A stretch of 19,885 nucleotides of DNA from an archaeon (GTDB taxonomy: Archaea; Nanobdellota; Nanobdellia; Pacearchaeales; GW2011-AR1), in the NCBI GenBank assembly GCA_030620045.1, contig JAUXAD010000015.1, positions 1-19,885 of the forward strand, in the 5' to 3' direction. The notes under the pieces are model-generated. The model worked only from the letters and a program-made list of their open reading frames with translations, ran no database searches and was not told the DNA's origin. How positions within the stretch are numbered: position 1 is the first letter of the stretch; each line of letters opens with the position of its first letter. Of the stretch, positions 1-19,885 are shown piece by piece. The position numbers and the translations under genes are program-made.

Positions 1-1533
1 ATTAACCAAATCACATCTCTGATTATATTCTATTAAATCATTAATTAAAATTGAAGCATTCTTTCTCGCTTCATCAACTTTATGCGGATTTGATTTGCCT
101 TTTTTAAATTCTGCTCTTGCACTAACAATATCTTTTAAAATTCTCAAATGTTGTGGAGAAAACTTTCCTTTCTTAACAAAATTTTTTTCAAACTCAGAAA
201 TAATTATCGCTTGAGATTTATTCCCAAACATGGTTTTCAAAAGACCAAATGTATCCTTGTATATTTGTTCTATTGTTTTTTCTGACGTTCTCTTCTCAAT
301 TTGCTCTCTTAATTCTTTAAGTCTTTTCAAATAATCTTCAGTATCCTTAAGTAACTTATCAATTTCTACACCCTTAATATCTTTTATCTTTTCATGTTCA
401 TAATCCTTATAAATTCCAACAATCTTTTCAAGAATAGTAATATATTTTTTCTCTAACATTTTTTCTTTGTCAACAAAAACTTTTTTCATTTCTGCAACAA
501 GATGTTTTGGAGCAGGAGGAGGTAAACCATTCAACATTAAAAGAGCCTGACTAGGAGTTGAAATCCCCCAAAAAAGATCCTGGATTACTATATCAAGCAA
601 AGCCATCTTTGCTCTTTTAACAGTTTTATCACCCAAAGACATAAACATATCAATAGCTTCAGGAGAAGGTTTTAACTTACCCATTTTCAATAAAGCTTTC
701 CATGGCATAAATGTTCCTCTGTCATAAATCGGGATACCATCTCTAATAAAAGTAAAAATCACCGGATGAGCATCTTTAACAGATTCCCAAAAATCAGTCA
801 AAAGATAAATTTGCGGAGAAAGTTTATTCTTCACTCCAGCAAGAGCAGAAGCTTCAGCAACATATTGATAAATTATTCCTCTCAATCTTTCTTTTAATTC
901 AAGCCTTGGCATTCTTTTAACATCAGTATCATTAATAATCACAAAAACATCAACATCAGAAGTTTTAATTGCCTCCCCTCTAACCAAACTCCCGCCAATA
1001 ACATAACTCACAACATATTTCTCAAACTTTTGCAAAACCAATGATTTATGAATCTCAGCAACTCTTAATGCCCCTAAAATCCCCTTATCATAAAGTGTAA
1101 AAGACATAGCAATCGCACTAGTCAACTCAAATTTACTATCTAAACAATTTTCCCAAACATCCACAGGAGTTTTAATCTGAACCCAAATTTTCTGCTTTCC
1201 TATTTGTTTAATTACCTCTTGTTTTATTTTCGGAACTTCCTTAAGCTTTTCTTCAGGAATAATCATGTAAATGTGAATATGTTTTTCAGTTTCTTTCGGA
1301 ATCTCCTCCTCATCAATAAATTTCTTAATAGCCACTGGAGGCAAAATACTTATTGCTTGAGTATAAGAATATTTCTTCATGATAAAAGACTTTAATTTTT
1401 CAAGCTCTTTTTTAGTTTTCTCCATATCTTTTTGTGATTTCTCAGAACTTTCAGGGACTATTGGTTTCTTGTCAGAATATTTTTTATCAATATTCATTTC
1501 TGGAATTTCTTGGTTACTGTTGTCATTATCCAT
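1..1533 (-). CDS. Pol-beta-superfamily nucleotidyltransferase domain protein, C-terminus cut by the window edge (at least 511 aa)
   Basis: Absent from the supplied ORF track because it runs off the window. I checked all 511 triplets from 1533 down to 1 and found no in-frame stop. ATG at 1533-1531, with an in-frame upstream stop at 1554-1552. VIGGSLVRGEAIKTSDVDVFVIIND fits the NTase motif hG[GS]x9-13Dh[DE]h. The long helical K/E-rich C-terminal part looks like an NTase-associated helical/HEPN-like region, but no Rx4-6H was seen. An A/T box lies about 25 nt upstream. Confidence 0.75.
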   Translation of the reverse strand, partial: MDNDNSNQEIPEMNIDKKYSDKKPIVPESSEKSQKDMEKTKKELEKLKSFIMKKYSYTQAISILPPVAIKKFIDEEEIPKETEKHIHIYMIIPEEKLKEVPKIKQEVIKQIGKQKIWVQIKTPVDVWENCLDSKFELTSAIAMSFTLYDKGILGALRVAEIHKSLVLQKFEKYVVSYVIGGSLVRGEAIKTSDVDVFVIINDTDVKRMPRLELKERLRGIIYQYVAEASALAGVKNKLSPQIYLLTDFWESVKDAHPVIFTFIRDGIPIYDRGTFMPWKALLKMGKLKPSPEAIDMFMSLGDKTVKRAKMALLDIVIQDLFWGISTPSQALLMLNGLPPPAPKHLVAEMKKVFVDKEKMLEKKYITILEKIVGIYKDYEHEKIKDIKGVEIDKLLKDTEDYLKRLKELREQIEKRTSEKTIEQIYKDTFGLLKTMFGNKSQAIIISEFEKNFVKKGKFSPQHLRILKDIVSARAEFKKGKSNPHKVDEARKNASILINDLIEYNQRCDLVN

Positions 1534-1581
1534 AGTGAAAATAGGATTTATTTAATATATAAAGGTTACTAATACATAAAC

Positions 1582-1612: not shown

Positions 1613-1684
1613 GGTCCCGTGGTCTATTGGCATGACATCTCGTTTACACCGAGAAGATAGCAAGTTCGATTCTTGTCGGGACCA
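1613..1684 (+). tRNA. tRNA-Val (anticodon UAC)
   Basis: Hand-folded cloverleaf. Acceptor GGTCCCG/CGGGACC, anticodon stem TCTCG/CGAGA with loop TTTACAC, T-arm GCAAG-TTCGATT-CTTGT, discriminator A. No encoded CCA and no intron. A T5 run follows. Confidence 0.88.
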
Positions 1685-2177: not shown

Positions 2178-2200
2178 CTATTTCTCATTTAATTAAACAT

Positions 2201-2272
2201 GCGTGAGTAGTATAGTGGTTAGTATATCTCGTTGCCAACGAGGTGACCCGGGTTCAATCCCCGGCTCGCGCA
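2201..2272 (+). tRNA. tRNA-Gly (anticodon GCC)
   Basis: Acceptor GCGTGAG/CTCGCGC (one G-U pair), anticodon stem TCTCG/CGAGG with loop TTGCCAA, T-arm CCGGG-TTCAATC-CCCGG, discriminator A. A T5 run follows. Confidence 0.88.
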
Positions 2273-2334
2273 TGATTTTTAAAAAATTTGAGGTCACAGA
2301 TAATGTTTATATATCTCTTTTTCCTTTATGAAAA

Positions 2335-5307
2335 ATGGTGAAAAAGAGGGAGAAAACTTTTAATTTTTTAAAAGGTAAGAATATTTTGATTGTTATATTA
2401 CTAGTCTTTTCTATTGTGGCGTTATATTTTTTCTTTGGTGGAAAGATAGGAATGATTGGATTTGCGACATGGACATATAATTCTTCATCAAGCTTTAACA
2501 ATGGAACATATAGTCAAACAGCCTATAACACATCAATAGATGCAGTAATTTTAACAACAAATCATACAGAGCCAAATATGATAGCTTTTTTCAATTCTAC
2601 TCCTGGTGGAGATTGGAATGTGCTGAATGGTGTTGATGATTCTCTTAATTTAATAGGGCAGTATCTTCGGGGTTCGAATAATCAGGGAACAGTATCAGGG
2701 AGTAATACTCATGAACATACGCCAAGTGAATTTGAAGTTGAGTATAATGCAGCTATTAATTATGGTGGAACACCTGGAAATCAACAATTTATATTAAGAG
2801 TTCATAGAACCCATAAGAGTACTCATGGTCATTCAGGAGATGACAATCAACCTCTATTTTATGAAATGATTCCTGCTGTTGGAGGCAGTGAACTTCCTGC
2901 TAATACATTGTTATTTTATGATGGTGATGTAGCTCCTGTAGGTTGGACAGCTTGGGCCGATGTTTATGATAAATTTATAAAATGTGCGAGTTCTGCTGGG
3001 GGAACTGGAGGAGCAGCAAGTCATTCACATAGTTATAGTGGTTCATCAACTAATAGTGTATCTACTCCTGATTTTCAGAATGACCAAACTGGTGGGGATA
3101 TGCAGAGTTATCTTCAACATAATCACGCTATGGATCATACTCATACAGAAGGAAACAATTATCCAGAATGGTATAGTCTAATCCCTATTATAAATAATGA
3201 GGGAACTACAGAGATTCCTGTAGGAGTTGTAGCTTTCTTTAAGGGTTCTAGTTGTCCAACTGGTTGGAGTTTATGTGATGGCACTGGAGGAACTCCTAAT
3301 CTTCAGAATAAATTTATATTATTAAATTCTACAAGTGGTACAACAGGTGGTGCTAATAGTCATACACATAGTCATAGCGGAATGATTAGTGGTCCAGGAT
3401 ATTATGGACTTGCAGTTGCTGCAACTATTGGATGGTGGATTACCAAAGATTATCCTCATACTCATCCTTGGCCTGCTGATAATCATAATAGTGGAAACAA
3501 TATATTAAGTCATGTTCCTTTATTAATTTGTAAAAAGTCTAGTACAAAATATGTCCCTACAGGAAATTACACATCAGAGATTTTTGATGCAACTCTTATT
3601 TCTAAATGGAATAATATTTCCTGGGAATCATCTCTACCTCCAAACACAAATTTGGATTTAAAAGTAAAGAGTTGTGATGATAGTGCATGTGACGAAGAAA
3701 GTTTTGTAGATGTTACAGATACATCTCCACAAGACTTATCAATTGCAAATAATCAATATTTTCAATATAACTTTGTTTTTGAAACTACAAATACAAGTTC
3801 TACTTCCAAATTATATAATGTTACAATTGATTATACTCCTGATACTTTTGCCCCTGTTATTAACCTCACATCCCCAACAAATAATGCAGGAGATAATGAT
3901 GGGAATGTAACGTTTAGTTATAATGTTAGTGATGATAGTGAGATAACTAATTGCAGTTTGATTATTGATGGTGAAATAAATCAGACAAATTCAACTATAA
4001 TACCAGATACAACTATGAACCTCACATCAAATAACTTGGCTTCTGGAAGTTATACTTGGAGTATAAATTGCACTGATGAAGTTAACAATGTTGGTTCAAG
4101 TGAAGAGAGAAGCTTGAGTGTGGTCTTATCCACTGAATTTTCAGGAGATACTACTGATTTTTCTGATGTGGATGTAAGTAATATAACTAATTTAATTATA
4201 GACCAACCAAGTGATGGAAAAATTAGTTTTGATGAGGATGTTAATTTTTCTGCAGGAGCTGATTTAGATACTTATGTTAATATAAGTTTTAATAGGATTG
4301 AATTAGATTCAATTACATTATCTGACTTAGATAGTAAAACAGCAACCTTATACTTGTATAATTTAACATTTAGTAATCCAAGGATTTTGAAAGATGGAAG
4401 TGTTTGCTCTTCTACAATTTGCACTAAAAATAGTTATTCTGATGGGACTTTAAACTTCAGCGTTACAGGCTTTAGTGTTTATTCTGCTGAGGAAACTCCT
4501 GTTACTACAACAACACCTTCTGGAAATGGGGGGAATGGTGGTGGAGGTGAAGTAATCAAATTCACCATTAACCCTGAGTTATATGAAAAAACAATGGCAC
4601 CAAATGGAATTTCTTTTGATGAAATAAAAATTACTAATAATGAAAATTCAGAAAAAAGTTTTAATGTTCAAGTAGAAACCCTTGAAGAGATTATTTCTTT
4701 TGAAGAAATAAGCGTAAACATAAGCTCAAAAAATATGAAGCGTCTTGAGTTTAAGATTAATGCTCCAAATAAATCTGGAATTTATGCAGGAAAAATCATT
4801 GTAATTTCCAGTTATATAAGAAAAGAAGCACTTGTAATAATCAATGTTGAATCTGAAAAAAGTTTATTTGATATTACAGTATCAATTCCAATAGCCATGA
4901 AAACAATAAATCCAGGAGAGAACTTAAAAGTCCAAGTAGAGTTATTGGAAATGGGAATACAAAAATACAAAGATGTGACTCTCAATTATGTAATAAAAGA
5001 TTTTGATGGAAATATTTATTTAACAGAATCTGAAACAATTGCAGTATCTGACCAAAAAACATTTAGCAGAGAGGTCTATACAGAACATCTCTCTAGTGGG
5101 GATTATATCCTTGGAGTTGAATTAATTTATCCAGATGGTGTTGCTGTGGCAAGTTCTTATTTTAGAGTAAAGGAAAAATTTGAAGTAGAAAGAGATCAAA
5201 TAATACTCACCAGTTTAATCTTTCTTGCCTTGTCTTCTATATTTGTAGGAATGATTTTGCTGATTAAAAGATATAAGAAAATGATAAAAAAAGTAAAAAA
5301 TTATTGA
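2335..5307 (+). CDS. large membrane-anchored surface protein (990 aa) with an N-terminal triple tail-collar-like HxH module
   Basis: N-terminal hydrophobic signal/anchor at aa 16-35. Three HxH-rich modules at aa 82-400. These are followed by beta-sandwich/Ig-like-looking segments, a T/G-rich linker (TPVTTTTPSGNGGNGGGGE, nt 4489-4548) and two further beta-sandwich-like segments. The C-terminus has a TM helix plus basic tail (LIFLALSSIFVGMILLIKRYKKMIKKVKNY). More than 20 N-x-S/T sequons by eye. TATA-like GTTTATATATC lies about 25 nt upstream of the ATG. Confidence 0.9.
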   Translation: MVKKREKTFNFLKGKNILIVILLVFSIVALYFFFGGKIGMIGFATWTYNSSSSFNNGTYSQTAYNTSIDAVILTTNHTEPNMIAFFNSTPGGDWNVLNGVDDSLNLIGQYLRGSNNQGTVSGSNTHEHTPSEFEVEYNAAINYGGTPGNQQFILRVHRTHKSTHGHSGDDNQPLFYEMIPAVGGSELPANTLLFYDGDVAPVGWTAWADVYDKFIKCASSAGGTGGAASHSHSYSGSSTNSVSTPDFQNDQTGGDMQSYLQHNHAMDHTHTEGNNYPEWYSLIPIINNEGTTEIPVGVVAFFKGSSCPTGWSLCDGTGGTPNLQNKFILLNSTSGTTGGANSHTHSHSGMISGPGYYGLAVAATIGWWITKDYPHTHPWPADNHNSGNNILSHVPLLICKKSSTKYVPTGNYTSEIFDATLISKWNNISWESSLPPNTNLDLKVKSCDDSACDEESFVDVTDTSPQDLSIANNQYFQYNFVFETTNTSSTSKLYNVTIDYTPDTFAPVINLTSPTNNAGDNDGNVTFSYNVSDDSEITNCSLIIDGEINQTNSTIIPDTTMNLTSNNLASGSYTWSINCTDEVNNVGSSEERSLSVVLSTEFSGDTTDFSDVDVSNITNLIIDQPSDGKISFDEDVNFSAGADLDTYVNISFNRIELDSITLSDLDSKTATLYLYNLTFSNPRILKDGSVCSSTICTKNSYSDGTLNFSVTGFSVYSAEETPVTTTTPSGNGGNGGGGEVIKFTINPELYEKTMAPNGISFDEIKITNNENSEKSFNVQVETLEEIISFEEISVNISSKNMKRLEFKINAPNKSGIYAGKIIVISSYIRKEALVIINVESEKSLFDITVSIPIAMKTINPGENLKVQVELLEMGIQKYKDVTLNYVIKDFDGNIYLTESETIAVSDQKTFSREVYTEHLSSGDYILGVELIYPDGVAVASSYFRVKEKFEVERDQIILTSLIFLALSSIFVGMILLIKRYKKMIKKVKNY
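2578..3534 (+). repeat. three tandem, diverged protein-level repeats (about 100 aa each) of a phage tail-collar-like module
   Basis: Modules at aa 82-183, 190-287 and 296-400. Each has a hydrophobic strand (IAFF / LLFY / VAFF), then GDW/GW, then (N/D)x(Y/F)(L/I), then a G-rich stretch. An HxH follows (THEHT / SHSHS / SHTHSHS), then a second His cluster (THGHS / HNH..HTHT / HTH..NH). Each ends in (D/N)N-x-P-x-(F/W)Y-x-(M/L)IP or NNILSHVPLLI. Confidence 0.6.
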
Positions 5308-6630: not shown

Positions 6631-7455
6631 TTAATATAGTTTTTGTATTCCAGCAATGTCACCAGTATTCAAATCTCTTTTAGAAGTTTCTTCATAATTA
6701 GAATATCCATACATTGTTTCATCTGCACAGACTGTATCGTATAAATCTCCTAAGCCAGCACCATGCCCTATTTCATGAGTTGCTATATTCTGTAAGTCCA
6801 TTACTTCTGGATTAACTATTGCATCTCCCCATGTAAAGTCTGTGTCGAAGAGTATATCAAATTCAACAATTCTTCTTTTGCTTGGTCTTCCGCTGAAATA
6901 TCCCCAGATTACTGTTACTGCAATTACTCCATCTTCTTTATAATTTCCAAAAGCAATAGCATTTTCAAAGTTTTGAATACCATATTTTGCAGTACTGTCA
7001 ATTGTATAAGCATTGTTAAACAATTCTGCTAATGTTGCATCATCCCATGTTTCTGCAGATGTTGATATTGCATTAGTTACAAATTCTTTTGACAAGCCAT
7101 TTGGATTAGTTGGATTTATTACATAATCCACAGATAAGTCTCTCCACTTTGCTCCTAAAAATGCATAGCATGAACTTGTGTCTGGTTCTTCTGGATCTTC
7201 TCCATTTTTCTTACAATCTGCACAACTTGGGTTTTCTTTAGGGTCACAAACTCCATCATTGTCACAAACTCTTCCATATCCTTTTTTATAATGTATAAAT
7301 ACGACCTTTTCTAAACCAGGCGGTGTTATTGATGCTTTTTTGTTTGGGTTTGCTTTGTCTGATCTTGGAATAAGCATTGAAGCTGCAATTATAGAAGTCA
7401 TTAAAACTGTTATCACTAAAATAGAGATTATTAGTTTTGTTTTTGTTCCTTTCAT
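6631..7455 (-). CDS. secreted zinc metalloprotease, metzincin type (HExxHxxGxxD)
   Basis: N-terminal signal/anchor (KLIISILVITVLMTSIIAASML). HEIGHGAGLGD encoded at 6745-6777. Downstream Met-turn-like ETMYGY. Cys-rich segment CDNDGVCDPKENPSCADC near the N-terminus. Confidence 0.8.
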   Translation of the reverse strand: MKGTKTKLIISILVITVLMTSIIAASMLIPRSDKANPNKKASITPPGLEKVVFIHYKKGYGRVCDNDGVCDPKENPSCADCKKNGEDPEEPDTSSCYAFLGAKWRDLSVDYVINPTNPNGLSKEFVTNAISTSAETWDDATLAELFNNAYTIDSTAKYGIQNFENAIAFGNYKEDGVIAVTVIWGYFSGRPSKRRIVEFDILFDTDFTWGDAIVNPEVMDLQNIATHEIGHGAGLGDLYDTVCADETMYGYSNYEETSKRDLNTGDIAGIQKLY

Positions 7456-8366: not shown

Positions 8367-8786
8367 TCATTCAATTTTCTCTTTTGCCAATATACTTTTT
8401 CTTTTTTCCAATATTTCTCCTAATTTCTTTATTGTATTATCCACATCTTTTCTTTTTATTTCCACGTTTTCTTTATCTAAAAAATTATGATAAAAATTAG
8501 CATGTAAAACTTCTCCAGTTTTAATTCCTATAAATATATTTTCATCTCCTTCAATAGTAGATAATTCTCTTGCAAATTCTATTACTTTTCTATGTTCTGT
8601 TAACTTTTTTTCATAAGTTAGAGCAATAGCAAATAAAAGAGAGTGAATAGCTCCCCATAAAAATTCTGTTGATTTTGATAAATTATTCAATCTAAAATTT
8701 TTTTCAAAATTATGATAATAATGATCAAACAATTTTTCTTTTTCTTCTATTTCAGAATATTCTTTTTTATCCATTAACTTCAACAT
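8367..8786 (-). CDS. PaREP1-like (HEPN-related helical) protein
   Basis: EFLWGAIHSLLFAIALTYEKKLTEHRKVIEF...GEVLHANFYHNFLDKENVE fits my recollection of the PaREP1 pattern (WGA...A, SH..L, LH.NFYE). The start overlaps the stop of the upstream ORF by 20 nt, or by 8 nt if Met5 at 8774 is used. Confidence 0.55.
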   Translation of the reverse strand: MLKLMDKKEYSEIEEKEKLFDHYYHNFEKNFRLNNLSKSTEFLWGAIHSLLFAIALTYEKKLTEHRKVIEFARELSTIEGDENIFIGIKTGEVLHANFYHNFLDKENVEIKRKDVDNTIKKLGEILEKRKSILAKEKIE

Positions 8787-9159
8787 TCCCCTTTGAGTAT
8801 ATTTTCATTGATTCACTACCTTTTAAAACCTCATCAATTTTAAAACTTATTATTACCTCATCTGCTAAAACTCCATAATCTCTTAATTTTGGCCAATCAT
8901 CTTTATGAATAAGCAGATAATCTTTAGAAACTGTTCCTTTTATTAAAACTAATTTTATTTTTTCTCCTTTAAGACCAACAAATTCTTTTTCGTCTTTAAT
9001 ATTTTCTATATTCATTATTTCAGCATTGACTATGTTCCCAGATACCAAATCGTAAGGAATAGACAATATTCTCTTCTCAATTGATATCCCTAATTTAGAA
9101 GCTATCCCCCAAGTAATTCCAATATCTCTTAGTAATGCTTCATTTATTATTAGTACCAT
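8767..9159 (-). CDS. hypothetical protein (130 aa), upstream partner of the PaREP1-like gene
   Basis: The track start at 9168 is TTG. ATG at 9159 is preferred, with AATTTATAAATAAT about 25 nt upstream, immediately after the infB stop. No family recognised and no minimal-NTase motif. Confidence 0.55.
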   Translation of the reverse strand: MVLIINEALLRDIGITWGIASKLGISIEKRILSIPYDLVSGNIVNAEIMNIENIKDEKEFVGLKGEKIKLVLIKGTVSKDYLLIHKDDWPKLRDYGVLADEVIISFKIDEVLKGSESMKIYSKGNVEVNG

Positions 9160-9196
9160 TATTCTCAACTTTATCTATTATTTATAAATTTATCTT

Positions 9197-11442: not shown

Positions 11443-11733
11443 ATGAAAAATAAAACAATTGAAGAAATTCAGGAGAAGTATGATTTGGAATTAGACAAAA
11501 TTATTTCTGAAATTAAAAATAAGAAATCTAAATTAGTTTTATTGCAGTTTCCCGACGGATTAAAACCTTATGCAACTGTTGTTATAGATTATTTAGAAGA
11601 AAAAACAAATGCTGAATTTTTGATTTGGATGGAAAGTTGTTTTGGTGCATGTGATATTCCTGTTGGAATTGAAAAATTAAAAATAGATTTGGTAGTTCAA
11701 TTTGGGCATTCAGAGATGATGCCTTGTTATTAG
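11443..11733 (+). pseudogene. dph2: N-terminal fragment (96 aa) of diphthamide synthesis protein Dph2
   Basis: KLVLLQFPDGLKPYA...YLEEKTNAEFLIW..SCFGACDIP....LKIDLVVQFGHSEM aligns with the first domain of archaeal Dph2, which is about 330-340 aa. The ORF stops 6 residues after the GHS motif. The convergent dCMP deaminase gene ends 1 nt later, so no room remains for the other two domains. An intact TATA-like AATTATAAAA lies about 27 nt upstream. Confidence 0.6.
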
Positions 11734-19243: not shown

Positions 19244-19315
19244 GCCTACGTGGTCTAACGGCTATGACATGTCCCTGTCGCGGACATAACCCGGGTTCGA
19301 CTCCCGGCGTGGGCG
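19244..19315 (+). tRNA. tRNA-Asp (anticodon GUC)
   Basis: Acceptor GCCTACG/CGTGGGC (one G-U pair), anticodon stem TGTCC/GGACA with loop CTGTCGC, T-arm CCGGG-TTCGACT-CCCGG, discriminator G. Confidence 0.88.
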
Positions 19316-19354
19316 CTTACATAATTATTTAAATCTCTTTTTCTTCTTATTCTC

Positions 19355-19885
19355 ATGAAAAAGAGTTTGATATTCATAGCAATTTTTATATTGTTGGCTA
19401 TGCCTCTAACATCTGCTGGAGAAATGACTACAGAGATAACTGGAGAATGTACAAATTATGATAGAGGAATAGAATATGAAAGATGTTGTCCGATGGGTGA
19501 AAAAATAAACTGCGTGAGTTGCAGAGACACTGATGGCGGCAGAAATTATTATGTAAAAGGAGAGACAATGGAACGGCACTGGAATCGTTTTGAAATGGGT
19601 ATGCTTGTTAGTGGAGGTCCTGGGATAAAAGAGGGATGTATAGAAATTATTCCTCTTACAGAATGTCCTGGAACTATTATTAAAGAAGCAACTGATGATA
19701 GTTATGGATTATGTGAACTTTATCAGCAAATTAAGCTTTATGGAGAAGTAGAAACTCCTGGAGAAGAAGAACAATGTGAAGTAAACTGTAGAACAAATGT
19801 GTGTTTTGAAGATGATGAATGTCTTGGTAGATGTCTTTCTGAATGCTGGAGAGATGATGGAGTAACTGTTCTTACAGAAGGTTAT
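19355..19885 (+). CDS. secreted cysteine-rich protein, C-terminus cut by the window edge (at least 177 aa)
   Basis: Not in the track because it runs off the window. I read all 177 triplets and found no stop. Signal peptide MKKSLIFIAIFILLAMPLTSAG. 14 Cys residues, including a CRDTDGGRNYYVKG motif. An A/T box lies about 25 nt upstream. Confidence 0.7.
   Translation, partial: MKKSLIFIAIFILLAMPLTSAGEMTTEITGECTNYDRGIEYERCCPMGEKINCVSCRDTDGGRNYYVKGETMERHWNRFEMGMLVSGGPGIKEGCIEIIPLTECPGTIIKEATDDSYGLCELYQQIKLYGEVETPGEEEQCEVNCRTNVCFEDDECLGRCLSECWRDDGVTVLTEGY

What the first reader, a model, noticed from the sequence alone, without database searches (positions are those of the whole stretch)
2578..3534. 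Three tandem phage tail-collar-like HxH modules in one chain at the distal end of an archaeal surface protein
Seen directly: aa 82-400 of the 990-aa protein form three diverged modules of about 100 aa with the same motif order. That order is a hydrophobic strand, then GW, then (N/D)x(F/Y)(I/L), then a G-rich stretch. An HxH follows, then a second His cluster, then NxPx(F/W)Yx(M/L)IP. There are at least 8 HxH motifs in about 320 residues. The best copy (VVAFFKGSSCPTGWSLCDGTGGTPNLQNKFILL..GGANSHTHSHSG...NNILSHVPLLI) matches my memory of the phage tail-collar / MdpB consensus. That consensus runs P.GW..CDG ... LPDLRGRF ... GG...H.H ... N.QPY..LNYII. Established: in T4 short (gp12) and long (gp37) tail-fibre tips, HxH motifs from three identical chains coordinate Zn or Fe on the threefold axis of the receptor-binding domain. 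Inference: three copies fused in one polypeptide could fold into a pseudo-trimeric, metal-stapled receptor-binding head. The module follows the N-terminal signal/anchor and is separated from the C-terminal TM anchor by Ig-like segments and a T/G linker, so it would be the membrane-distal tip. In a small-genome archaeon this is a plausible host or partner attachment adhesin with viral-fibre ancestry.
Basis: partly seen in the sequence, partly recalled or inferred. Interest (0 to 1): 0.75.

Follow-up and report, generated by a model that had tools for sequence, protein, structure and literature searches.

The report
Viral tail-fibre tip on archaeal surface protein
A tiny symbiotic-type (DPANN) archaeon carries a membrane-anchored surface protein whose outer end is a virus tail-fibre receptor-binding tip, rebuilt as three fused copies in one chain, which makes it a concrete candidate for how such cells grip a partner.

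Summary
Residues 82-400 of the 990-aa ORF (window 2335-5307, +) form three diverged ~105-aa modules with the same motif order. There are 8 HxH motifs (1.07 expected by shuffling), and 19 of the protein's 21 His lie here.

The modules belong to the phage tail-collar (T4 gp12-like) superfamily. A profile-profile comparison gives 99.1% probability, although the direct Pfam hit is below threshold.

Several lines point to an obligate three-module unit:
- Relatives carry 3, 6 or 9 modules.
- One phage splits the unit 2+1 across adjacent genes.
- The number of HxH layers is matched among the three modules.
- AlphaFold2 packs the head as one body (pTM 0.76, against 0.44 for the Ig-like stalk at equal pLDDT).

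The nearest relatives (42-51% identity) are ~365-aa proteins. The one with long context sits at the fibre position of a tailed virus whose portal resembles a methanogen virus. The archaeal head nests inside that clade in an unbootstrapped neighbour-joining tree. The stalk is a common DPANN scaffold that carries other heads elsewhere.

Not shown: His clustering geometry (no coordinates, and the His hairpins have low confidence), metal binding, adhesion, and signal-peptide cleavage. I rate it a new variant of a known kind.

The parts
2335..5307 (+). Whole gene: 990-aa surface protein made of signal/anchor, triple tail-collar head, Ig-like stalk and C-terminal TM anchor
   Evidence: ORF list and translation. 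A 70%-identical 979-aa orthologue, P0060, has the same architecture.
2380..2439 (+). N-terminal hydrophobic segment (aa 16-35), preceded by a basic n-region. It is either a signal peptide or a signal anchor; cleavage is unknown.
   Evidence: There are only two Kyte-Doolittle hydrophobic segments in the protein, spanning aa 9-45 and 954-980.
2440..2571 (+). Spacer (aa 36-79) with 4 N-x-S/T sequons
   Evidence: Sequon count and sequence.
2572..2892 (+). Module M1 (aa 80-186). His layers: H126/H128, (H157)/H160 and H164/H166.
2893..3210 (+). Module M2 (aa 187-292). It lacks the CDG...TP(D/N)L loop. His layers: H230/H232, H262/H264 and H268/H270.
3211..3540 (+). Module M3 (aa 293-402), the copy most like the canonical tail collar (IPVGVVAFF..CPTGWSLCDGTGGTPNLQNKFIL). 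His layers: H343/H345/H347, H375/H377 and H384, plus H393 in the last strand. It ends PLLICKK, like the C-terminus (..LLxCKKD) of the viral relatives.
   Evidence: Pfam Collar at aa 297-317, E = 0.018. PHROG tail-fibre families at E about 1e-5 to 1e-6. tblastn to phage tail-collar fibres. Module alignments.
3541..3834 (+). Domain aa 403-500, shared with some DPANN surface proteins. Poorly modelled.
   Evidence: tblastn to Nanoarchaeota, Micrarchaeota and Methanosarcinales MAG loci. pLDDT below 50.
3835..4497 (+). Two Ig-like beta-sandwich domains (aa 501-601, Big_7; aa 611-721)
   Evidence: Pfam Big_7, E = 4e-5, 24.6 bits against a cutoff of 24.1. The AF2 model is all-beta with pLDDT above 90. 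Foldseek matches tandem Ig/FnIII/macroglobulin domains.
4498..4551 (+). Thr/Gly-rich linker PVTTTTPSGNGGNGGGGE (aa 722-739)
   Evidence: Sequence. pLDDT below 50.
4555..5172 (+). Two further beta-sandwich domains (aa 741-841 and 845-946)
   Evidence: AF2 model and Foldseek. Conserved in 198 DPANN homologues.
5200..5304 (+). C-terminal TM helix (aa 956-978) plus a basic cytoplasmic tail, RYKKMIKKVKNY
   Evidence: Hydropathy and sequence.

Best explanation
The gene encodes a mosaic cell-surface protein of a DPANN (Pacearchaeota/Nanoarchaeota-like) archaeon.

Its stalk and C-terminal membrane anchor (aa 403-990) are a scaffold common in DPANN archaea: four Ig-like beta-sandwiches and a T/G linker.

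Its head (aa 80-402) is a receptor-binding tip of the phage tail-collar (T4 gp12 short-tail-fibre) superfamily, in a single-chain form. The classical fibre tip is built from three identical chains. Here three diverged modules are fused in tandem and pack as one pseudo-trimeric body.

Each module contributes one HxH to each of two or three layers of histidines. By analogy with gp12 (Zn) and gp37 (Fe), these layers would form hexa-His metal sites that staple the three hairpins together (inferred).

The head was most likely captured from the tail-fibre gene of a tailed virus. Its closest relatives are ~365-aa proteins, and the one seen with long context lies at the fibre position of a tailed virus.

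Displayed on the stalk, the head most likely binds a surface glycan or protein of another cell, serving as a host or partner adhesin (inferred).

Shown: the repeat, the homology, His conservation, the fixed copy number of three, compact packing in the prediction, nesting among virus-type fibre proteins in an unbootstrapped neighbour-joining tree, and the generic stalk. Inferred: metal binding, the axis geometry, signal-peptide cleavage and the ligand.
For: Repeat and His statistics.

Tail-collar homology:
- hhalign of the module profile against a single-module tail-collar/MdpB profile that includes gp12 330-527 gives probability 99.1%, E = 1.2e-18.
- PF07484 is found in 12 of 31 aligned homologues, best E = 7.9e-8.
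- PHROG tail-fibre families match, and tblastn hits 'tail collar fiber protein' and 'short tail fiber'.
- gp12 has the same motif order: IPVGAIMMW at 341, LPDMRGLF at 392, HKH at 445-447 and WNISLNYII at 515.

The unit of three:
- Of 205 proteins, 140 have 3 modules, 22 have 6 and 1 has 9.
- The two-module protein P0023 is followed 2 nt later by a 139-aa single-module gene in two phage contigs.
- HxH clusters per module are matched across the three modules in 91 of 184 units, against 38 +/- 4 when shuffled.

Compactness: the head has pLDDT 79.2 and pTM 0.76. The stalk has pLDDT 80.4 and pTM 0.44. The whole head superposes on predicted phage proteins Pas28 and Pas29 (E = 8e-17 and 1.5e-16, TM 0.60-0.63) and on tail-collar or tail-fibre proteins.

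His conservation.

Viral origin:
- P0004 (46% identical) is encoded after terminase, portal and major head genes.
- The window protein and P0060 are nested at least 10 nodes deep in a 66-member clade, of which 56 are short fibre-type proteins.
- The portal's best hit is a Methanomicrobiales-associated virus (E = 2e-88).

Generic stalk: there are 198 homologues, and every one that carries a source name is DPANN or an unclassified archaeon. Other heads occur (LamG, beta-helix and others). Only P0060 shares this head among the 120 listed.

Receptor-binding-like evolution: the head is 57% identical to the orthologue and the stalk 80%, while 18 of 19 head His are kept.

Extracellular stalk: 19 N-glycosylation sequons lie in it.
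Against: - The direct Pfam Collar hit is sub-threshold.
- A profile search of PDB sequences found nothing, and Foldseek against the PDB found nothing below E = 0.67. The profile against gp12 alone gives only P = 0.011 over 22 columns.
No geometry of the His residues was measured.
- Module counts come from hits to a three-module profile, so there is ascertainment bias against 1- and 2-module proteins.
- The His-layer correlation is not corrected for phylogeny.
- The tree is neighbour-joining without support values, and only one member of the nearest clade has a long, clearly viral context.
- If the N-terminal segment is not cleaved, the head sits near the membrane rather than at the tip.
- No ligand, partner or metal is known.
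Confidence: 0.65

Rival explanations
1. Receptor masking or an antiviral decoy. The captured viral receptor-binding tip binds, in cis or on neighbouring cells, the same receptor that the related viruses use. It would then block adsorption, giving superinfection exclusion in the way that captured viral envelope genes do in animals. It would not attach the cell to a partner.
For: The head is nested within a viral fibre clade at 42-51% identity. It evolves faster than the stalk (57% against 80%), as expected in an arms race. The gene is not syntenic in two relatives, so it behaves as an accessory gene.
Against: Nothing shows that these viruses infect this archaeon. The one long viral contig has 47% GC against 31% for the window. 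A long Ig-like stalk that projects the head away from the cell's own surface suits trans binding better than cis masking. Sister stalks carry lectin-like LamG heads, which suggests adhesion.
Confidence: 0.12
2. Three independent tail-collar-like lectin modules arranged as beads on a string, each binding on its own. In this reading there is no pseudo-trimer and no shared metal sites.
For: Tandem binding modules are common in surface proteins. The His hairpins are poorly modelled. There is no PDB analogue for the whole head.
Against: Copy number is 3, 6 or 9, with almost no contiguous arrays of 4 or 5. A 2+1 split across adjacent genes completes a set of three. The number of His layers is matched among modules. 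Head pTM is 0.76 against 0.44 for the truly beaded stalk at the same pLDDT. The solved relative gp12 needs three copies around an axis (established knowledge).
Confidence: 0.1
3. A His-rich metal-capture or catalytic domain, for example Ni/Zn/Fe scavenging or a metallo-hydrolase, rather than a binding head.
For: His makes up 6% of the head against 0.3% of the rest of the protein. The HxH motifs are invariant.
Against: The homology is to structural fibre tips. There is no Pfam, NCBIfam or PDB match to any enzyme. In the homologous fibres, the metals bound by HxH are structural (established for gp12 and gp37; PMC11705849 summarises gp37).
Confidence: 0.05
4. A decaying remnant of an integrated virus with no present function.
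For: A tRNA-Gly gene lies 61 nt upstream, and tRNA genes are common integration sites.
Against: The 990-codon frame is intact. A 70%-identical full-length orthologue keeps 18 of 19 head His. The flanking genes are housekeeping, with no integrase or other viral gene. GC3 of the head (0.15) matches that of the stalk (0.18). The head is fused in frame to a cellular stalk.
Confidence: 0.03

Closest known systems
T4 gp12 short tail fibre receptor-binding domain (collar plus head; Pfam PF07484 'Phage Tail Collar Domain')
   Same: The motif order is the same: strand, P..W..C.G, LPD(M/L)RG.F, G-rich stretch, HxH, then N..P(W/Y)...(L)NYII strand. Profile-level homology of the N-terminal half of each module is strong. 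In gp12 the HxH binds Zn on the threefold axis (established knowledge), and the only HxH in gp12 is at 445-447.
   Different: gp12 is a homotrimer of one 187-aa unit per chain, with a single HxH. Here three ~105-aa units lie in one chain, with 2-3 HxH each. The insert between the collar strands is a short hairpin rather than a ~120-aa head. There is no detectable match to the solved structure. The protein is anchored to a cell, not to a baseplate.
MdpB / 'microcystin-dependent protein' and other single-module tail-collar proteins of bacteria and phages
   Same: They are direct phmmer hits to the window head (P0051 and P0056, E about 1e-4). They have the same module, including HxH and the PPYY.L.YI(M/I)K end.
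   Different: They have one module per chain and are presumed to be homotrimers. Their functions are largely unknown.
Uncharacterised ~365-aa fibre-type proteins from marine metagenomes (P0001-P0008 and about 70 cluster representatives); one (P0004) lies on a clearly viral contig
   Same: They carry the same three-module head, collinear over 97% of it at 36-51% identity, with all His layers and the terminal PLLxCKK motif.
   Different: They have three N-terminal 14-aa 'VSGxWK' repeats instead of a signal peptide, and they end right after the head. P0004 is encoded at the end of a virion structural gene block. The window protein instead continues into a 590-aa stalk and anchor.
Pas28 / Pas29 of Actinoplanes phage phiAsp2 (predicted structures in BFVD)
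   Same: They are the best whole-head fold matches (E = 8e-17 and 1.5e-16, TM 0.60-0.63, 19-21% identity). The single-chain three-module fold therefore also exists in a cultured bacteriophage.
   Different: They are much larger phage proteins (1291 and 936 aa). They are uncharacterised, and the comparison is between two predictions.
T4 gp37 long-tail-fibre needle tip (HxH-Fe sites)
   Same: Repeated HxH motifs lie on strands. In gp37, seven iron ions are coordinated by paired His (PMC11705849, citing the crystal structure).
   Different: I found no sequence or fold similarity. The resemblance is limited to the motif and the proposed principle.
DPANN Ig-like stalk surface proteins (hypothetical or LamG-domain proteins of Nanoarchaeota, Pacearchaeota, Woesearchaeota and Aenigmarchaeota)
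   Same: aa 403-990 are 31-60% identical in the best local alignments to the listed homologues, apart from the 80%-identical orthologue P0060, with the same domain order and C-terminal anchor.
   Different: Their N-terminal heads differ (none, LamG, beta-helix/NosD, Sortilin-type). Only the orthologue P0060 has the triple tail-collar head.

Membership tests
Phage tail collar domain (PF07484) / gp12-like receptor-binding domain superfamily | Match to the Pfam Collar HMM at or above its gathering score | tested here: not met
   The window protein scores 15.4 bits, E = 0.018, at aa 297-317 only. The cutoff is 24 bits.
Phage tail collar domain (PF07484) / gp12-like receptor-binding domain superfamily | Homology detectable by profile-profile comparison or through intermediates | tested here: met
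   hhalign gives probability 99.1%, E = 1.2e-18 over 50 columns against a profile of tail-collar/MdpB proteins plus gp12 330-527. 12 of 31 aligned homologues hit PF07484, best E = 7.9e-8. PHROG tail-fibre families match at E = 7.6e-6 and 2.5e-5.
Phage tail collar domain (PF07484) / gp12-like receptor-binding domain superfamily | Motif order: N-terminal strand, P.GW..CDG, (L)P(D/N)L...F, G-rich stretch, variable insert, then a returning C-terminal strand N.P.Y..(L)..I | tested here: met
   The order is present in all three modules and in register across 27 modules. The same order occurs in gp12. AF2 predicts terminal strands at region positions 101-108, 205-213 and 319-327.
Phage tail collar domain (PF07484) / gp12-like receptor-binding domain superfamily | Assembly from three identical chains (homotrimer) | tested here: not met
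   Three different modules lie in one chain. The unit of three is kept through fusion instead. This is the respect in which it is a variant.
Phage tail collar domain (PF07484) / gp12-like receptor-binding domain superfamily | Fold similarity to solved gp12 (PDB 1H6W / 1OCY) | tested here: inconclusive
   Foldseek against PDB chains gave no hit below E = 0.67. A one-chain pseudo-trimer cannot be aligned to one chain of an intertwined trimer, so the test is weak. BFVD predictions annotated as tail collar or tail fibre do match (E = 9e-5 and 4e-4).
Phage tail collar domain (PF07484) / gp12-like receptor-binding domain superfamily | Metal ion on the (pseudo-)threefold axis bound by HxH from three units | not testable with these tools
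   No coordinates were returned, and the His hairpins have pLDDT about 46-66. Indirect evidence: the HxH layers are in register, and the number of layers is matched among modules.
T4 gp37-type needle tip (HxH iron sites) | Sequence or fold similarity to the gp37 tip | tested here: not met
   The profile search of all PDB sequences found only two chance hits at E above 3. Foldseek against the PDB found none.
T4 gp37-type needle tip (HxH iron sites) | Several HxH motifs on beta-strands, conserved in relatives | tested here: met
   There are 8 HxH motifs, and most lie in or next to predicted strands. 17 His are invariant. This shows a shared principle, not membership.
DPANN Ig-like stalk surface-protein family | Collinear homology of the stalk, T/G linker, two C-terminal beta-sandwiches and the TM anchor | tested here: met
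   There are 198 homologues at E <= 1e-5. The best after the orthologue are 54% and 50% identical, from Nanoarchaeota or unclassified archaeon MAGs. A 2212-aa Nanoarchaeota protein matches aa 410-990 at 42%. AF2 and Foldseek show tandem Ig-like domains.

The most novel reading that the evidence does not exclude
A DPANN archaeon has co-opted the receptor-binding tip of an archaeal tailed virus as the business end of its own surface adhesin. Symbiont and virus would then recognise the same kind of receptor on a host cell. Alternatively, the cell uses the stolen tip to mask that receptor against the virus. Beyond this one gene, the head would exemplify an undescribed design principle: trimeric fibre tips converted into single-chain pseudo-trimers. 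All three stages are visible in nature, namely 1x3 homotrimer, 2+1 adjacent genes, and 3-in-1 fusion. The design is used in thousands of viral and CPR/DPANN/Asgard surface proteins.
Probability: 0.3. Interest if true: 0.85.

Novelty: new variant of a known kind. Interest (0 to 1): 0.68.

Why it matters
How DPANN archaea recognise and hold on to their hosts is an acknowledged open question. PMC11329633 states that the molecular details of host recognition remain unknown. This gene offers a specific, testable candidate: a compact, roughly 320-aa head with a known evolutionary source (viral receptor-binding proteins), mounted on a scaffold whose relatives carry other heads. It could be expressed and used as a probe to find the partner cell or receptor.

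It also points to a large family that the domain libraries do not annotate as a unit. The profile search found 2243 cluster representatives at E <= 1e-3. There is no NCBIfam model, and Pfam sees only fragments. In this family a trimeric phage fibre tip has become a single-chain pseudo-trimer.

That matters for annotating phage receptor-binding proteins and for structure prediction, because these are monomers and should not be modelled as trimers. It also matters for engineering, since a one-chain binding tip with three non-identical faces can evolve asymmetric specificity.

Tried and rejected
- Self-BLAST of the head found no internal repeat. Smith-Waterman scoring with shuffles was needed.
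- A profile search of all PDB sequences gave only two chance hits.
- Foldseek of the head against the PDB gave nothing significant. The top hit, 6ov6, had E = 0.67 and rmsd 46, and I did not follow it.
- hhalign of the module profile against gp12 alone gave only a 22-column match (P = 0.011), although at the right place, gp12 341-364.
- With the single protein, the scan found only stalk relatives, not the source genome.
- IMG/VR scans with the head and with an alignment of the viral-type proteins found essentially nothing: one 38-residue hit, then none.
- Exact look-ups of the window protein and of P0060 are not on record.
- NCBIfam has no model for the head.
- Four literature searches found no description of a single-chain or tandem tail-collar pseudo-trimer, nor of tail-collar domains in DPANN surface proteins. 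Only open-access papers and bioRxiv preprints are covered.
- I tested whether M1, M2 and M3 are each orthologous to the same position in the giant-protein (CPR/DPANN) type of unit. They are not; the score matrix has no dominant diagonal. I therefore make no claim of one ancient triplication. Independent triplications or excessive divergence both remain possible.
- I considered integration at the upstream tRNA-Gly. There is no integrase, and only 7 nt separate the gene's stop from the convergent aIF2-gamma gene, which leaves no room for a second att site.
- Synteny in two relatives of the archaeon was uninformative or absent.

Full report
**The observation**

The window holds a 990-codon ORF at 2335-5307 (+). 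The finding's coordinates, 2578-3534, are aa 82-400. HxH motifs start at aa 126, 164, 230, 262, 268, 343, 345 and 375. That makes eight, against a mean of 1.07 and a maximum of 6 in 20,000 shuffles of the same residues. Nineteen of the protein's 21 histidines lie in this third of the chain (P = 4.6e-8).

Three modules (M1 aa 80-186, M2 187-292, M3 293-402) are similar to each other far beyond shuffled controls, with z = 6.1, 8.6 and 13.2. They are too diverged for BLAST. I cut the modules out of the window protein and eight homologues and aligned all 27 together. So do three successive histidine positions: HxH after the G-rich stretch, a second HxH, and a third HxH that is reduced to a single His in M3.

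**Setting**

The neighbouring genes are archaeal housekeeping genes: aIF2-gamma, aIF5B, ribosomal proteins S6e and S10, SerRS, dCMP deaminase and thymidylate kinase. There are also three tRNA genes. Nothing nearby is viral, and no other ORF in the window has a tail-collar module.

The aIF2-gamma is 77-80% identical to proteins named Candidatus Pacearchaeota or Nanoarchaeota. The stalk of the target protein has relatives in Nanoarchaeota, Micrarchaeota and Pacearchaeota MAGs, plus one Methanosarcinales MAG.

**What the modules are**

Direct library hits are weak. Pfam Collar scores 15.4 bits against a cutoff of 24, and only for the start of M3. PHROG tail-fibre families match at E = 7.6e-6 and 2.5e-5. 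tblastn hits phage 'tail collar fiber' and 'short tail fiber' genes at E about 1e-4 to 1e-5.

The link becomes solid through relatives.
- 12 of 31 aligned homologues hit PF07484, best E = 7.9e-8.
- The 27-module profile matches a profile of single-module tail-collar/MdpB proteins plus gp12 residues 330-527 with probability 99.1%, E = 1.2e-18.
- T4 gp12, read from the T4 record, has the same motif order: IPVGAIMMW at 341, LPDMRGLF at 392, its only HxH at 445-447, and WNISLNYII at 515.

From established knowledge, His445 and His447 of the three gp12 chains bind a Zn ion on the threefold axis. The gp37 tip binds seven Fe ions through HxH pairs; this is summarised in PMC11705849.

No match to a solved structure was found, either by sequence profile or by Foldseek. 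A profile against gp12 alone gave only a short match at the right place. So the modules are members of the tail-collar superfamily by homology. The comparison with gp37 rests on the HxH principle only.

**Is it a pseudo-trimer?**

I could not obtain model coordinates, so the geometry was not measured. Four indirect tests all point the same way.

1. Copy number. In 205 proteins gathered by the searches, a module HMM finds 3 modules in 140, 6 in 22 and 9 in one. The 6-module cases are two triplets, adjacent or far apart. Counts of 4, 5 or 7 are rare and mostly reflect split detections. The hits were gathered with a three-module profile, which biases against 1 or 2 modules but not against 4 or 5.
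2. A natural split. The two-module protein P0023 is followed, 2 nt downstream, by a 139-aa gene that is exactly one module (E = 7e-19). This is seen in two phage contigs that also carry a GH25 lysozyme. Homotrimer (1x3), 2+1 and 3-in-1 forms thus all exist.
3. Matched His layers. Lineages differ in how many HxH clusters each module has (2, 3 or 4), but the number is matched among the three modules of a unit. It is equal in 91 of 184 units, against 38 +/- 4 after shuffling, with r about 0.66-0.70. This is not corrected for phylogeny. It is what one expects if each layer needs a contribution from all three modules.
4. Prediction. AlphaFold2 on aa 75-405 with 31 sequences gives pLDDT 79.2 and pTM 0.76. 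The stalk (aa 402-960) gives the same pLDDT (80.4) but pTM 0.44, as expected for beads on a string. The whole head also superposes on predicted phage proteins: Pas28 and Pas29 of phage phiAsp2 (E = 8e-17 and 1.5e-16, TM 0.60-0.63), a 'tail collar domain containing protein' and a 'tail fiber protein'.

One caveat applies. The confident parts (pLDDT above 90) are the three collar cores. The His-bearing hairpins have pLDDT about 46-66. The packing of the collars is therefore supported, but the His 'staple' is not.

**Conservation**

Seventeen His are invariant among nine sequences at 36-51% identity. Eleven stay invariant when more distant three-module proteins are added.

A 979-aa orthologue, P0060, is 70% identical overall and has the same architecture. 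It is 80% identical in the stalk but only 57% in the head, yet it keeps 18 of the 19 head His. A fast-evolving surface around a fixed core is typical of receptor-binding domains.

**Where the head came from**

The closest relatives of the head (42-51% identity over 97% of it) are ~365-aa proteins. They have no signal peptide, carry three N-terminal 14-aa 'VSGxWK' repeats, and end right after the head in ..LLxCKKD.

One of them, P0004, lies on a 23.8-kb Tara Oceans contig, after the large terminase, portal and major head genes and near the end of that co-directional block. The portal's only strong match in GenBank phages is a virus assigned to Methanomicrobiales (E = 2e-88, 31% identity over 90%; the next hits are around 1e-6 to 1e-8). 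This suggests, but does not prove, an archaeal virus. Two other members sit in short, densely packed, unannotated contigs.

In a neighbour-joining tree of 184 three-module units, the window protein and P0060 are nested at least ten nodes deep. The enclosing clade has 66 members, of which 56 are such short fibre-type proteins. The tree has no support values.

Single-chain triple heads are also phage receptor-binding-type proteins elsewhere. P0035 is the last tail-module gene before an amidase endolysin.

Codon third-position GC of the head (0.15) equals that of the stalk (0.18), so the capture is not recent.

A second, distinct clade of triple units sits inside giant surface proteins of archaea and other microbes. 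Named examples are from Woesearchaeota and Helarchaeota. Others are a T9SS-sorted protein and a protein in a cellular gene context. I could not show position-by-position orthology between the two clades.

**The rest of the protein**

Only two hydrophobic segments exist, at the N-terminus and at aa 956-978. The stalk is predicted as four all-beta domains, with a disordered T/G linker at aa 722-739. It matches tandem Ig-like, FnIII and macroglobulin domains in the PDB, with 484 hits at E <= 1e-3. Pfam Big_7 is just above its cutoff. The stalk carries 19 N-x-S/T sequons and the head only 2.

The stalk has 198 homologues, and those that carry a source name are DPANN or unclassified archaea. Many are ~590-aa proteins with nothing but a signal peptide and the stalk. 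Others carry LamG, beta-helix/NosD or Sortilin-type heads. Only P0060 carries the tail-collar head among the 120 listed. The protein is thus a mosaic: a generic DPANN display scaffold plus a virus-derived binding tip.

**Mechanism proposed**

Inference. In gp12-like domains both ends of each unit lie in the collar, and the insert points away from it (established for gp12). A single-chain head can therefore be tethered by either terminus: by its N-terminus in the viral proteins, and by its C-terminus in the archaeal protein. In both cases the hairpin end faces outward.

If the N-terminal segment is a cleaved signal peptide, the head is the membrane-distal tip of a stalk several Ig domains long. 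There it would bind a glycan or protein on another cell. If the segment is not cleaved, the head is held near the membrane.

The main rival is that the captured tip masks a viral receptor. Independent lectin beads, a metal-scavenging or catalytic role, and a dead viral remnant are each contradicted by specific results (see rival explanations).

**Novelty**

The tail-collar domain and HxH metal sites are known. What I could not find described is the obligate single-chain triple form, its fusion to an archaeal cell-surface stalk, and the 1x3, 2+1 and 3-in-1 series. Four searches of open-access papers and bioRxiv found nothing. Pfam sees only fragments and NCBIfam has no model for the unit.

The family is large: 2243 cluster representatives at E <= 1e-3 and 108 at E <= 1e-30. 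I rate it a new variant of a known kind. Interest is moderate to high, because host recognition by DPANN archaea is an open problem (PMC11329633) and this head is a directly testable candidate.

Noticed in passing
window 2200-2273 (+), 1613-1684 (+), 19244-19316 (+): tRNA-Gly(GCC) ends 61 nt before the start codon of the surface-protein gene. tRNA-Val lies about 500 nt further upstream, and tRNA-Asp is near the right end. tRNA genes are frequent integration sites, but there is no integrase and no room for a second att site, because the gene's stop is 7 nt from the convergent aIF2-gamma stop.
   Followed up: partly
L016 6001-7270 and L017 6001-7270: In a phage-like contig with a GH25 lysozyme downstream, a two-module tail-collar protein (P0023, 282 aa) is followed 2 nt later by a 139-aa gene that is one further module. 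The set of three is split 2+1 across adjacent genes.
   Followed up: yes
P0001-P0008, residues about 1-45 (e.g. L001 10001-10135): The viral-type relatives begin with three tandem 14-aa 'K(V/I)SGxWK' repeats. These match PHROGs 25859 and 36019 (function unknown) and the N-termini of hypothetical proteins of Ralstonia, Burkholderia and Rhizobium jumbo phages. The attachment end, like the head, appears to be triplicated within one chain.
   Followed up: partly
L012 (P0003 contig) and L013 (contig of an archaeon with 85%-identical aIF2-gamma): Both come from the same metagenome assembly (ERZ23486227, BAEC19-1). L012 has the lowest GC of the viral-type contigs (0.376, against 0.45-0.53 for the others). 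This co-occurrence could hint at a virus of this archaeal lineage or of its host.
   Followed up: no
L001 11095-11502, L010 4182-4481, L012 1534-1884: A small gene directly downstream of the viral-type fibre gene is weakly conserved between contigs (tblastn E about 1e-4). It may be an assembly factor or a second fibre component. The window has no counterpart.
   Followed up: partly
window 11443-11733 (+): A 96-aa ORF matches only positions 1-60 of the 302-position diphthamide synthesis family (PF01866, E = 7.5e-15). The gene is truncated, split or misassembled. It abuts a dCMP deaminase gene on the other strand.
   Followed up: no
window 8367-9168 (-): A PaREP1/PaREP8-family protein (139 aa) overlaps a 133-aa ORF with no family match. 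The pair lies between S6e and aIF5B, is compact, and has the lowest GC of the window (0.25).
   Followed up: no
window 6631-7455 (-); L013 8510-9373: A matrixin-type metalloprotease (Peptidase_M10) sits next to aIF2-gamma, both here and in the 85%-related contig. The adjacency is conserved, while the surface-protein gene is not.
   Followed up: partly
window about 1-1550 (-) and about 19325-19885 (+): Open frames run off both ends of the window. On the minus strand at the left there is a stretch of at least 517 aa. At the right there is a stretch of at least 187 aa that is Cys-rich and signal-peptide-bearing. Neither appears in the ORF list because both are cut by the window ends.
   Followed up: no
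P0067, P0073, P0075, P0094, P0121, P0176 and similar (proteins of 1,800-6,500 aa): Giant surface proteins carry one to three triple tail-collar units each; one named example is from Woesearchaeota. Pfam found nothing in the three I scanned (P0067, P0090, P0097). The units in this clade show no position-by-position orthology with the viral-type units, so the triplication may have arisen more than once.
   Followed up: partly
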